Source: Escherichia phage A6-6
Reading direction: 5' to 3' (one strand)
Length of the DNA: 64,000 nucleotides
Sequence record: PQ510734.1
Shown here one piece after another: positions 18,521 to 19,114 of this stretch. Position 1 is the stretch's first letter, and every line of letters begins with the position of its first letter. Under the pieces are notes generated by a model. It did no database searches, had not been told where the DNA came from, and saw only the letters and a program-made list of their open reading frames with translations. A program made the position numbers and the translations under genes.

Positions 18521-19114
18521 ATGAACACACTGAAGAAAATTGTTGAGTTTATTCGCACTAAACTTGGTTCTGCTATGGCTAAAAATTTATCTGTTGAAGA
18601 ACAGTATACTGCTGCGGCAGCAAAACTGCTTGATAAAATTAAAGATCTAAAAACTGCTTCTGTTAAATCTATTAATGAAGAAAAGCGTATTCGTGAACTT
18701 ATTGTCGAAAAGAATAAGCAGGCCGAATCAAAAGAGCGTGAAATTCGCAAGCTTCTTTCCGAAGGTCAAGATGTAACAATGCATGCTAAACTCGGCTTGC
18801 TATATCGTCGAACAGCTGAGCAGTTGACTACTAAAGCTGATGGTTATGCTGAAATGCGAATTGAAATCGCTAAGAAAGTAGTTGAATTGGATGATGCACG
18901 CCAAGAACTTGCGGTTAAATTGGAATATATCCGTGAAACTCGTGCAGCAAATGCCCTTGGAATTAGTACTGCTGATGATGTAGTTGAAATTGCAGCACTG
19001 ACTAAGGTTGATATTGAAGATACTCTTGCTCGAGTTGAAACCTTTAACGGTAATATTTCTGGGGTTGAAACTACTTCTGCTGATGTTCAGGAATACATTA
19101 ATTCTCTGAAATAA
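18521..19114 (+). CDS. Coiled-coil protein, possible PspA/IM30-family member
   Basis: 197-aa ORF, all-helical heptad character; C-terminal LARVETF resembles PspA ARFESFE; weak similarity, inferred. Confidence 0.35.

What the first reader, a model, noticed from the sequence alone, without database searches (positions are those of the whole stretch)
18521..19114. Possible PspA/IM30-family coiled-coil protein in the early e.x block
The 197-aa all-helical ORF has the length and heptad character of PspA/Vipp1 (ESCRT-III-like) proteins, and its C-terminal LARVETF echoes the PspA ARFESFE region. A phage-encoded membrane-stress or membrane-remodelling protein could protect the inner membrane during infection or interfere with host envelope-stress signalling. 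Similarity is weak and judged by eye.
Basis: inference. Interest (0 to 1): 0.4.

Follow-up and report, generated by a model that had tools for sequence, protein, structure and literature searches.

The report
T4 e.6: a phage PspA-like protein
The ORF is phage T4 gene e.6, a real and strongly conserved early gene whose protein is a shortened, very divergent relative of the bacterial membrane-repair protein PspA/Vipp1, a link noted once in a 2021 genome announcement but never tested experimentally.

Summary
Window 18521..19114 (+) is a 197-aa ORF, 100% identical to T4 e.6, with its own early-type promoter, an RBS and a downstream UUCG hairpin. All 16-19 codon differences between relatives are synonymous, and the protein is detected by proteomics.

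The PspA/IM30 interpretation is supported, though not by simple searches. T4 e.6 alone has no PF04012 hit at E<=10 and no PDB sequence hit. The evidence is:
- Divergent family members (found by the e.6 profile at E~1e-20; BLASTP 9e-13 to e.6) pass Pfam's PF04012 cutoff (39.0 and 35.1 bits against 33.9).
- The family profile hits Vipp1 in PDB sequences (E 6.9e-5, 1-146:1-147).
- hhalign against verified PspA/IM30 gives 95% probability, E 2e-8 (T4 e.6 alone: E 9e-5). Reversed and shuffled controls give E 0.01-0.3.
- AF2 (pLDDT 82) gives the alpha0 / alpha1 / alpha2+3 hairpin plan, and Foldseek ranks Vipp1 first.

The homology was published in one sentence (PMC7862958). The likely role, inferred only, is PspA-like stabilisation of the inner membrane in infected cells. 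It is a new member of a known kind, of moderate interest.

The parts
18465..18493 (+). Early-type sigma-70 promoter: (G)TTTACA -35 at 18465-18470, 17-nt spacer, TG at 18485-18486, TATTAT -10 at 18488-18493
   Evidence: Best promoter-like site in 17400-19900 (10/12 with TG). The same position carries annotated -35/-10 signals in T4 record L13089 and a promoter in phage Lutter. The transcript is classed early.
18510..18514 (+). Ribosome-binding site AAGGA, 6 nt before the ATG
   Evidence: Read directly from the sequence.
18521..19114 (+). CDS of e.6 (197 aa + TAA), a divergent PspA/IM30-like protein
   Evidence: identity to T4 e.6; only synonymous differences; PspA/IM30 relationship.
18524..18586 (+). 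aa 2-22: N-terminal amphipathic helix (alpha0 equivalent); hydrophobic face L4/I7/V8/F10/I11/L15/A18/M19, net charge +3
   Evidence: AF2 helices 2-22 and 3-22 (low pLDDT, 40-53). muH 0.45 against PspA 0.42 and Vipp1 0.57. Aligned residue-for-residue with PspA alpha0.
18593..18760 (+). aa 25-80: first arm of the long helical hairpin (alpha1 equivalent)
   Evidence: AF2 H25-80, pLDDT 78-98. Aligned to PspA/Vipp1 25-80.
18761..18775 (+). aa 81-85: hairpin tip (EGQDV), followed by the conserved H-A-K-L-x-L-L (aa 88-94), matching the PspA 'LA[RK]xAL' pattern
   Evidence: AF2 loop 81-85. A89/K90/L91/L94 are invariant or nearly so. PspA tip motifs are shown.
18776..18955 (+). aa 86-145: second arm of the hairpin (alpha2+3 equivalent)
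   Evidence: AF2 H86-145, pLDDT 83-94. Aligned to PspA/Vipp1 ~86-147.
18956..18970 (+). aa 146-150: break after the hairpin, containing the nearly invariant G147 (putative elbow/hinge)
   Evidence: G147 is conserved in >=90% of 44 divergent members. AF2 shows a break at 146-150.
18971..19111 (+). aa 151-197: shortened, divergent C-terminal region with short helices 151-160, 166-174 (contains LARVETF, aa 169-175, nt 19025-19045) and 186-196 ([11 protein letters not shown]). Possible remnants of alpha4/alpha5, about 25 aa shorter than PspA
   Evidence: AF2 (pLDDT 50-88). LARVETF aligns on MARFESF only with the enterobacterial PspA profile. The C-terminal [10 protein letters not shown] pairs with PspA ISEQLAQLK at low confidence.
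19120..19135 (+). GC-rich hairpin AGGGGC-TTCG-GCCCCT (UUCG tetraloop), 5 nt after the stop codon; likely transcript end or stabiliser
   Evidence: Annotated as a stem-loop in L13089 and as a terminator in Lutter. The + strand lacks a T-run, so its terminator function is uncertain.

Best explanation
Window 18521..19114 is the Tequatrovirus gene e.6: a monocistronic-looking early gene (own sigma-70 early promoter, RBS, downstream UUCG hairpin). It encodes a soluble 22-kDa all-helical protein that is a compact, highly divergent member of the PspA/IM30(Vipp1) branch of the ESCRT-III superfamily. Shown here: the gene is real and constrained, and the family is homologous to PspA/IM30 over alpha0-alpha3 (residues 1 to ~148); I put that at about 0.9. 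Inferred (about 0.45): it works like PspA. The cationic amphipathic alpha0 helix would bind the cytoplasmic face of the inner membrane, and the alpha1/alpha2+3 hairpin would polymerise into a membrane-covering assembly that limits proton leakage. A phage would want its own copy because PspA induction needs host sigma-54/PspF transcription, which T4 shuts off within minutes (established knowledge of T4), while T4 infection stresses the inner membrane (DNA entry, many small phage membrane proteins, holin accumulation and lysis inhibition). Loss of proton-motive force would trigger premature holin firing or abortive infection. e.6 has no PspB/C/F partners in the phage, lacks the AEDP motif and has a truncated C-terminus, so regulation and assembly details probably differ from PspA.
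For: Gene reality:
- Identity to T4 e.6.
- 1,106 phage records carry it.
- 54 codon differences across three pairwise comparisons, all synonymous.
- Promoter and hairpin.
- Early RNA, protein detected.

Homology:
- 5 of 44 family members hit PF04012. P0188 (39.0 bits, E 8.9e-10) and P0186 (35.1 bits) exceed the 33.9-bit cutoff, aligned 6-146 to profile 2-143.
- These two members are tied to e.6 by the e.6 profile at E 4e-20 and 4e-21 against 1.84 billion proteins, and by BLASTP at E 8.8e-13.
- The family profile against PDB sequences gives Vipp1 at E 6.9e-5, with 8 of the top 9 hits Vipp1/PspA, aligned 1-146:1-147.
- hhalign against 11 verified PF04012 sequences: family 95.3%, E 2.2e-8; Straboviridae-type subset 81.5%, E 1.1e-5; T4 e.6 alone 59.7%, E 8.8e-5. 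Reversed controls give E 0.011-0.28 and column shuffles score <=17.8.
- Published HHpred: 99.9% to 4WHE_A for an e.6 homolog (PMC7862958).

Structure:
- Two AF2 models share the PspA helix plan.
- Foldseek on PDB: eight of the top nine hits are Vipp1/PspA, and CdvB2 (ESCRT-III) takes rank 5 and most of ranks 10-13.
- BFVD lists a phage 'PspA/IM30 family protein' and a 'Snf7 family protein' directly after the e.6 family.

Mechanism hints:
- alpha0 amphipathicity is comparable to PspA/Vipp1.
- No TM segment.
- The host psp operon is only weakly induced by T4, unlike PhiX174 (PMC12795941).
- PspA repairs proton leakage (cited).
Against: - T4 e.6 alone gives no PF04012 hit even at E<=10, no NCBIfam hit and no PDB phmmer hit.
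- The T4-proximal clade alone is weak: E 0.006 against a low-diversity PspA profile, versus 0.01 for the reversed control; E 4.6e-4 versus 0.011 against the diverse profile. The case therefore leans on divergent relatives and profile depth.
- The near-invariant PspA 'AEDP' motif is absent, and the C-terminal 50 aa are about 25 aa shorter and unstably aligned.
- alpha0 amphipathicity is only marginally above shuffles (672/10000).
- No partner genes (pspB/C/F) are present.
- No experiment on e.6 function was found.
Confidence: 0.6

Rival explanations
1. Regulatory mimic or decoy. e.6 keeps mainly the PspA hairpin (the region of E. coli PspA, residues 1-144, that binds the AAA+ activator PspF). 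It would act by binding host PspF and/or PspB/C to silence or hijack the host Psp envelope-stress response, rather than by repairing membranes itself.
For: The best-conserved part relative to PspA is exactly residues 1 to ~148, and the membrane-assembly helices alpha4/alpha5 are truncated. 4WHE is the PspA(1-144) fragment; that this fragment is the PspF-binding domain is my own knowledge of the 4WHE publication, not tested here. Host psp is only weakly or partially induced by T4.
Against: T4 already shuts off host transcription globally (established knowledge), so a dedicated PspF repressor seems redundant. Sequence identity to E. coli PspA is only about 12-14%, so conservation of a specific PspF interface is not evident. 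The family also occurs in phages of Aeromonas and many other hosts, and in Ackermannviridae. alpha0 is retained and amphipathic.
Confidence: 0.15
2. Membrane-proximal scaffold for phage functions. e.6 uses the PspA-like fold to organise or chaperone phage membrane proteins (for example the small membrane proteins e.4/e.3/e.2 encoded just downstream, or the membrane protein that follows the gene in Ackermannviridae), or to organise membrane-associated replication complexes or superinfection exclusion, rather than acting as a general leak sealer.
For: e.4, e.3 and e.2 have 1-2 predicted TM segments each and lie 0.6-1.8 kb downstream. In Klebsiella phage May the homolog sits in the replication module (helicase, ligase, helicase loader), immediately upstream of an annotated 'membrane protein'. 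In the metagenomic contig L003 it is near uvsX and a DnaB-type helicase.
Against: The neighbours are not conserved between the T4-type and Ackermannviridae-type loci (no BLAST matches), so there is no fixed cassette. No sequence evidence links e.6 to any of these proteins, and all neighbours are of unknown function.
Confidence: 0.15
3. A generic coiled-coil protein. The resemblance to PspA would be compositional or heptad convergence with no common ancestry, and the function unrelated.
Against: PF04012 is the only family hit significantly by several members, and two exceed the curated cutoff. All alignments are collinear from residue 1. Reversing either profile or shuffling columns abolishes the signal (score 44-58 falls to <=19). 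The signal rises as the PspA profile gets more diverse (searches compared). Independent published HHpred gives 99.9%.
Confidence: 0.05
4. A virion or tail component, as some database names say ('host specificity protein', 'tail completion protein').
For: Only the names attached to some homologs in UniRef and GenBank.
Against: Early promoter and early transcript. Located in the early e.x block or in replication modules, not among structural genes. No similarity to any tail or host-range family in Pfam or PHROGs. The names are inconsistent with one another and look like propagated automatic annotation.
Confidence: 0.02

Closest known systems
E. coli PspA (phage shock protein A; PDB 4WHE; Pfam PF04012)
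   Same: Same helix plan: amphipathic alpha0 (2-22), a break at 23-24, an antiparallel hairpin of about 56 + 60 residues with its tip at 81-85, no TM segment, acidic-to-neutral pI and similar size. Collinear profile-profile alignment from residue 1. Against the enterobacterial profile, e.6 LARVETF aligns on MARFESF and the C-terminal ...SLK aligns on ...QLK.
   Different: Only about 12-14% identity. T4 e.6 alone does not reach PF04012. It lacks the AEDP motif, is 25 aa shorter with a truncated alpha4/alpha5 region, and has a more cationic alpha0 (+3 against 0). It is phage-encoded, expressed from an early sigma-70-type promoter rather than a sigma-54/PspF promoter, and has no pspBCDE or pspF neighbours.
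Cyanobacterial Vipp1/IM30 (Synechocystis sll0617, PDB 7O3W/8QFV; Nostoc, 6ZVR)
   Different: e.6 has no Vipp1-type C-terminal extension (alpha6) and a shorter alpha4/alpha5. Ring or rod assembly and membrane remodelling are untested for e.6.
Klebsiella phage Metamorpho gp163 (PMC7862958)
   Same: Stated by its authors to be a homolog of T4 e.6, with a 99.9% HHpred match to PspA 4WHE_A. This is the only prior report of the relationship that I found.
   Different: It is a one-sentence note in a genome announcement, with no analysis of T4 e.6 itself, no controls and no function. The T4 reference, PHROGs (phrog_1203) and Pfam still list the family as unknown.
Ackermannviridae e.6-like proteins (e.g. 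Klebsiella phage May gp064; P0188, P0186)
   Same: Same family and length (about 200 aa), full-length alignment to e.6.
   Different: About 25% identical to e.6. These members do pass the PF04012 cutoff. They lie in a replication-gene neighbourhood, not an e.x block, and are annotated 'hypothetical' or, wrongly, 'tail completion protein'.
ESCRT-III proper (Snf7/CHMP, archaeal CdvB)
   Different: No sequence-level signal. The structural scores are within the range of unrelated hairpins, so the relationship holds only at superfamily level, through PspA.

Membership tests
PspA/IM30 (Pfam PF04012) | The protein itself matches the Pfam HMM above the gathering cutoff (33.9 bits) | tested here: not met
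   T4 e.6 has no PF04012 hit at E<=10. None of the 49 close homologs carries a precomputed PF04012 hit.
PspA/IM30 (Pfam PF04012) | Unambiguous homologs of the protein match the Pfam HMM above the cutoff (transitive membership) | tested here: met
   P0188 scores 39.0 bits and P0186 35.1 bits, aligned 6-146 to profile 2-143; P0189 scores 22.3 bits; 5 of 44 members hit. They are linked to e.6 at E ~4e-20 (profile against 1.84 billion proteins) and 8.8e-13 (BLASTP). Precomputed PF04012 also appears.
PspA/IM30 (Pfam PF04012) | Profile-profile similarity to verified family members, above order-destroying controls | tested here: met
   hhalign: family 95.3%, E 2.2e-8; subset without the divergent tail 81.5%, E 1.1e-5; T4 e.6 alone 59.7%, E 8.8e-5. 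Reversed controls give E 0.011-0.28 and shuffles score <=17.8. The reference set was verified. The T4-proximal clade alone is weak (E 4.6e-4 against 0.011). HMM against PDB: Vipp1 at E 6.9e-5.
PspA/IM30 (Pfam PF04012) | N-terminal amphipathic helix alpha0 (~residues 2-22), followed by a helix break | tested here: met
   Predicted helix 2/3-22 with a break at 23-24. muH 0.45 against 0.42 (PspA) and 0.57 (Vipp1), with a clear hydrophobic face. Caveats: low pLDDT, shuffle p ~0.07, and membrane binding itself is untested.
PspA/IM30 (Pfam PF04012) | Long antiparallel alpha1 / alpha2+3 coiled-coil hairpin (~residues 25-145) | tested here: met
PspA/IM30 (Pfam PF04012) | Conserved A-E-D/N-P motif at the alpha0/alpha1 junction | tested here: not met
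   All 11 reference PspA/IM30 sequences have [AM]E[DN]P. e.6 has K-N-L-S-V-E-E at the aligned position, and the family consensus KN.S.ED has no Pro.
PspA/IM30 (Pfam PF04012) | Full-length alpha4 and alpha5 helices with the F-x-R/K-M/F-E and ...ELAxLK motifs | tested here: inconclusive
   e.6 has short helices 151-160, 166-174 and 186-196, and is about 25 aa shorter. LARVETF/MARFESF and ...YINSLK/...LAQLK pair up only at low confidence, and the register changes with the profile used.
PspA/IM30 (Pfam PF04012) | Self-assembly into rings, rods or carpets on membranes, with protection against proton leakage | not testable with these tools
   Needs biochemistry or cryo-EM. No multimer prediction was available.
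Proteobacterial Psp system (pspF-pspABCDE) | Genomic association with PspB/PspC membrane sensors and the PspF activator; sigma-54 promoter | tested here: not met
   The neighbours e.8, e.7, e.5-e.2 have no Pfam hits and unknown-function PHROGs. The promoter is the sigma-70 early type. The gene is therefore not part of a Psp system, although partner genes are not a defining feature of the wider IM30 family.
ESCRT-III superfamily | ESCRT-III-like fold detected by structure comparison, specifically above other helical hairpins | tested here: inconclusive

The most novel reading that the evidence does not exclude
T4-type and Vi1-type (Ackermannviridae) myoviruses carry their own minimal ESCRT-III/PspA-like membrane-maintenance protein as an early gene. 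It would replace the host Psp response that the phage itself disables, keeping the proton-motive force up through the latent period. In that way it would set lysis timing and lysis-inhibition stability, or blunt abortive-infection systems that kill by depolarising the membrane. That would make e.6 a phage-encoded counter-measure acting at the level of membrane integrity, and a natural 197-aa 'minimal PspA' for structural study.
Probability: 0.3. Interest if true: 0.7.

Novelty: new member of a known kind. Interest (0 to 1): 0.45.

Why it matters
T4 is the best-studied lytic phage, yet e.6 is still 'conserved hypothetical' in the reference genome, in PHROGs (phrog_1203, unknown function) and in Pfam. 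This analysis assigns it, and a family found in more than 1,100 sequenced Straboviridae and Ackermannviridae genomes, to the PspA/IM30-ESCRT-III superfamily.

That gives a concrete, testable function for an early gene: phage-driven maintenance of host inner-membrane integrity after host transcription, and hence the sigma-54-dependent Psp response, has been shut down. It also shows that canonical PspA is almost absent from phage genomes (2 of 50,697 records), whereas this divergent compact form is common. Finally, it corrects misleading database names ('host specificity protein', 'tail completion protein').

The homology itself is not new (one sentence in PMC7862958). The added value here is the controlled confirmation for T4 e.6, the list of what is and is not conserved, and the family's distribution.

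Tried and rejected
- **Single-sequence searches** of T4 e.6 gave nothing usable: Pfam at E<=10, NCBIfam (only a 13.9-bit 'sll1863 stress protein' hit, treated as noise), and PDB phmmer.
- **A1 profile against PDB**: only E 1-3 Vipp1 hits, suggestive because collinear but not significant.
- **Exhaustive profile search** of 1.84 billion representatives: the family stays closed (45 clusters, about 200 aa), with no direct HMMER bridge to 220-aa PspA proteins.
- **afdb50 Foldseek** was unavailable.
- **hhalign against a single E. coli PspA** (29%) and **against a shallow enterobacterial profile with the T4-proximal clade** (no better than the reversed control). This prompted me to build a more diverse, Pfam-verified PspA set.
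- **Conserved e.7-e.6-e.5 cassette:** rejected, because the neighbours of the Ackermannviridae-type gene are unrelated.
- **e.2/e.3/e.4 paralogy:** not significant by BLAST.
- **Literature searches** for functional work on e.6 or phage-encoded PspA found only the Metamorpho note. The eLife host-pspA paper concerns a host gain-of-function mutant and is not informative for e.6.
- **The database names** 'host specificity protein' and 'tail completion protein' were considered and rejected (see rivals).

Full report
**1. What is at the coordinates**

Window 18521..19114 (+) is an ATG-to-TAA ORF of 197 codons. It lies in a T4-type early block. Eleven tRNA genes sit at 15464-16484. After them come small ORFs, e.8, e.7, this ORF, e.5, e.4, e.3, e.2, a Nudix gene (nudE, PF00293) and the T4-type lysozyme gene e at 21428-21922.

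The T4 reference record names the equivalent gene e.6, 'conserved hypothetical protein', and the window protein is 100% identical to it. The window is a Tequatrovirus but not T4 itself. It carries two extra ORFs that T4 lacks here (16873..17346 and 17919..18083), as does phage Lutter.

The gene has its own signals:
- The best sigma-70/T4-early-like promoter in the region: (G)TTTACA, 17 nt, TG-n-TATTAT at 18465-18493.
- An AAGGA ribosome-binding site at 18510-18514.
- An AGGGGC-TTCG-GCCCCT hairpin at 19120-19135.

The same promoter and stem-loop are annotated in the old T4 record L13089, where the gene is called msp3, and in Lutter.

**2. Is it a real gene?**

Yes, on three counts:
- tblastn finds it in 1,106 of 50,697 phage records.
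- The three pairwise comparisons between window, T4 and Lutter show 19, 16 and 19 codon differences, and all are synonymous.
- A T4 time-resolved omics study lists e.6 as 'early-RNA_middle-Protein', so the protein is detected in infected cells (PMC9697503 supplement).

**3. Simple annotation searches fail**

As a single sequence, e.6 has no PF04012 hit even at E<=10, nothing meaningful in NCBIfam, and no PDB sequence hit. It belongs to PHROG 1203, 'unknown function'. A search of 5.8 billion proteins gives 49 homologs, all from T4-like phages and without Pfam domains. An exhaustive profile search of 1.84 billion representatives finds only 45 clusters, almost all 195-205 aa. The family is compact and closed at the HMMER level.

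**4. The link to PspA/IM30**

*(a) Intermediate sequences.* I scanned 44 divergent family members (alignment A2) individually against Pfam. PF04012 was the only family hit significantly: 5 members, best E 8.9e-10. P0188 (39.0 bits) and P0186 (35.1 bits) exceed the curated cutoff of 33.9, aligned 6-146 to profile positions 2-143. These two proteins are unambiguous e.6 relatives: E 3.9e-20 and 3.8e-21 over their full length with the e.6 profile, and BLASTP E 8.8e-13 for P0188 against T4 e.6. They come from Ackermannviridae-type phages such as Klebsiella phage May.

*(b) Profile against solved-structure sequences.* The shallow profile A1 gave only E 1-3 hits to Vipp1, though they were collinear. 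The deeper A2 profile gives Vipp1 at E 6.9e-5. Eight of the top nine hits are Vipp1/PspA, all aligned from residue 1 to ~146.

I then built a reference set and checked each new member against PF04012 (123-154 bits). The set was:
- enterobacterial PspAs;
- Vipp1 residues 1-149, as printed;
- five 26-32%-identical PspA/IM30 proteins from Bacillus, Clostridium and Arthrobacter plasmids and two phage contigs.

hhalign results:

| e.6 query set | vs diverse PspA | vs reversed PspA |
|---|---|---|
| Whole family (A2) | 95.3%, E 2.2e-8, score 57.6 | E 0.047 |
| A2 minus the 13 most divergent members | 81.5%, E 1.1e-5 | E 0.07 |
| T4 e.6 alone | 59.7%, E 8.8e-5 (171 columns, 1-187:1-182) | E 0.039 |
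| T4-proximal clade (A1) | 32.9%, E 4.6e-4 | E 0.011 |
| Divergent tail alone | 95.8%, E 7.9e-9 | E 0.28 |

Thirty column shuffles never exceeded a score of 17.8.

With a shallow enterobacterial-only PspA profile, the T4-proximal clade was indistinguishable from the reversed control (E 0.006 against 0.01). The signal clearly depends on profile depth. That explains why routine annotation misses it, and why the published HHpred run with deep MSAs reports 99.9%.

*(d) Prior report.* The genome announcement of Klebsiella phage Metamorpho states that its gp163 is a homolog of T4 e.6 and aligns with E. coli PspA 4WHE_A at 99.9% by HHpred (PMC7862958). I found no other mention and no functional study.

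**5. Structure**

Two AF2 runs (33- and 44-sequence alignments) give mean pLDDT 74 and 82 and the same topology: helix 2/3-22, a break, helix 25-80, a loop at 81-85, helix 86-145, a break around the nearly invariant G147, then short helices 151-160, 166-174 and 186-196. This is the alpha0 / alpha1 / alpha2+3 hairpin plan of PspA and Vipp1.

Foldseek against the PDB ranks Vipp1/PspA cryo-EM chains in eight of the top nine places (E 5e-3 to 2e-2, prob >= 0.99, TM 0.42-0.52; the other is CdvB2). The archaeal ESCRT-III protein CdvB2 fills most of ranks 10-13. Against viral models, the e.6 family is followed within a few ranks by a phage 'PspA/IM30 family protein' and a giant-virus 'Snf7 family protein'.

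**6. What is and is not conserved**

Conserved:
- The amphipathic N-terminal helix: muH 0.45 against 0.42 for PspA and 0.57 for Vipp1; hydrophobic face L4/I7/V8/F10/I11/L15/A18/M19; net charge +3.
- The helix break at residues 23-24.
- The hairpin arm lengths.
- The tip pattern G-x-[DE]...A-[KR]-x-x-L.

Not conserved:
- The near-invariant AEDP motif (e.6 has KNLSVEE).
- About 25 residues of the alpha4/alpha5 region.

But these C-terminal pairings have low confidence, and their register shifts with the diverse profile. e.6 has no predicted TM segment.

**7. Context and distribution**

No pspB/C/F-like genes are nearby. The neighbours have no Pfam domains and fall in unknown-function PHROGs. e.4, e.3 and e.2 downstream are small predicted membrane proteins. 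In Ackermannviridae, the homolog lies among replication genes and is followed by an annotated membrane protein, and its neighbours are unrelated to the T4 e.x genes. e.6 is therefore not part of a fixed cassette.

Canonical PspA is detectable in only 2 of 50,697 phage records. This divergent compact form is thus the common phage version.

**8. Mechanism**

*Shown:* a constrained, expressed early gene encoding a PspA/IM30-superfamily protein that retains alpha0 and the hairpin.

*Inferred:* it binds the inner membrane through alpha0 and polymerises through the hairpin to limit proton leakage, as PspA does (function cited). This would substitute for the host Psp response, which needs sigma-54/PspF transcription that T4 abolishes (established knowledge of T4 host shut-off). 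Consistent with that, T4 induces host psp only weakly, unlike PhiX174. Keeping the proton-motive force up would prevent premature holin triggering and help under lysis inhibition or membrane-targeting abortive-infection systems.

*Rivals:*
- A PspF/PspBC-binding mimic, plausible because the retained region corresponds to the PspA(1-144) fragment.
- A scaffold for phage membrane or replication proteins.
- Non-homologous coiled coil, rejected by the controls.
- Virion component, rejected on timing and context.

**9. Verdict**

It holds at the level of a divergent family member or superfamily relative, not as a canonical Psp-system component. Function remains untested. Novelty: a new (divergent, compact, phage-borne) member of a known kind, already noted once in the literature. 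Interest is moderate.

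Noticed in passing
window 16873..17346 (+) and 17919..18083 (+): Two ORFs (157 aa, phrog_2280; 54 aa, phrog_5461) that the T4 reference lacks at these positions but phage Lutter has. The window is therefore a Tequatrovirus other than T4, even though its e.6 protein is 100% T4.
   Followed up: partly
window 19733..20125 (e.4), 20107..20469 (e.3), 20466..20954 (e.2): Three overlapping small ORFs, each with 1-2 predicted TM segments, that end in similar cytoplasmic tails (...FVKESRCKSQN / ...FVSDCRKIK / ...FITECRKLK). They may be ancient paralogs, but BLAST is not significant (best E 0.08). e.2 is 162 aa here against 102 aa annotated in T4.
   Followed up: partly
window 15464..16484: An eleven-gene tRNA cluster (Gln, Leu, Gly, Pro, Ser, Thr, Met/Ile-CAT, Tyr, Asn, His, Arg). 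This is larger than the 8 tRNAs annotated in T4, and no segB homing-endonuclease gene is evident among the ORFs listed between them.
   Followed up: no
window 19120..19135: A UUCG-tetraloop hairpin (AGGGGC-TTCG-GCCCCT) follows a double stop (TAA TGA). The consensus scan scores it as a terminator only on the minus strand, because the T-run is on that side. On the + strand it may act as an RNA-stabilising or processing hairpin rather than a classical terminator.
   Followed up: no
database records of e.6 homologs (e.g. H22, H24, H33, H39; Klebsiella phage UPM 2146, H47): Homologs are variously named 'host specificity protein' and 'tail completion protein'. Nothing found here supports these names, and they look like propagated annotation errors.
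   Followed up: partly
L006 (Klebsiella phage May, NC_047900) 4001..4609; L003 6001..6609: The PspA-like family extends to Ackermannviridae (Taipeivirus and relatives; 530 records by tblastn). There the gene sits in the replication module and is followed by a membrane-protein gene. These versions pass the PF04012 cutoff, yet the two named records inspected (phage May and UPM 2146) annotate them as 'hypothetical protein' or 'tail completion protein'.
   Followed up: partly
plasmid collection (e.g. H74-H107): 441 plasmid records, mostly from Klebsiella and Enterobacter, carry a pspA 90-95% identical to E. coli chromosomal pspA (92.8% in nearly all the rows listed). This suggests a widely disseminated plasmid-borne copy (only pspA itself was seen under the match). 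Canonical PspA is found in only 2 of 50,697 phage records.
   Followed up: no
window 18508..18750 (-): An 80-aa antisense ORF overlaps the 5' part of e.6. It has no support and is most likely a by-product of the coding strand's composition.
   Followed up: no
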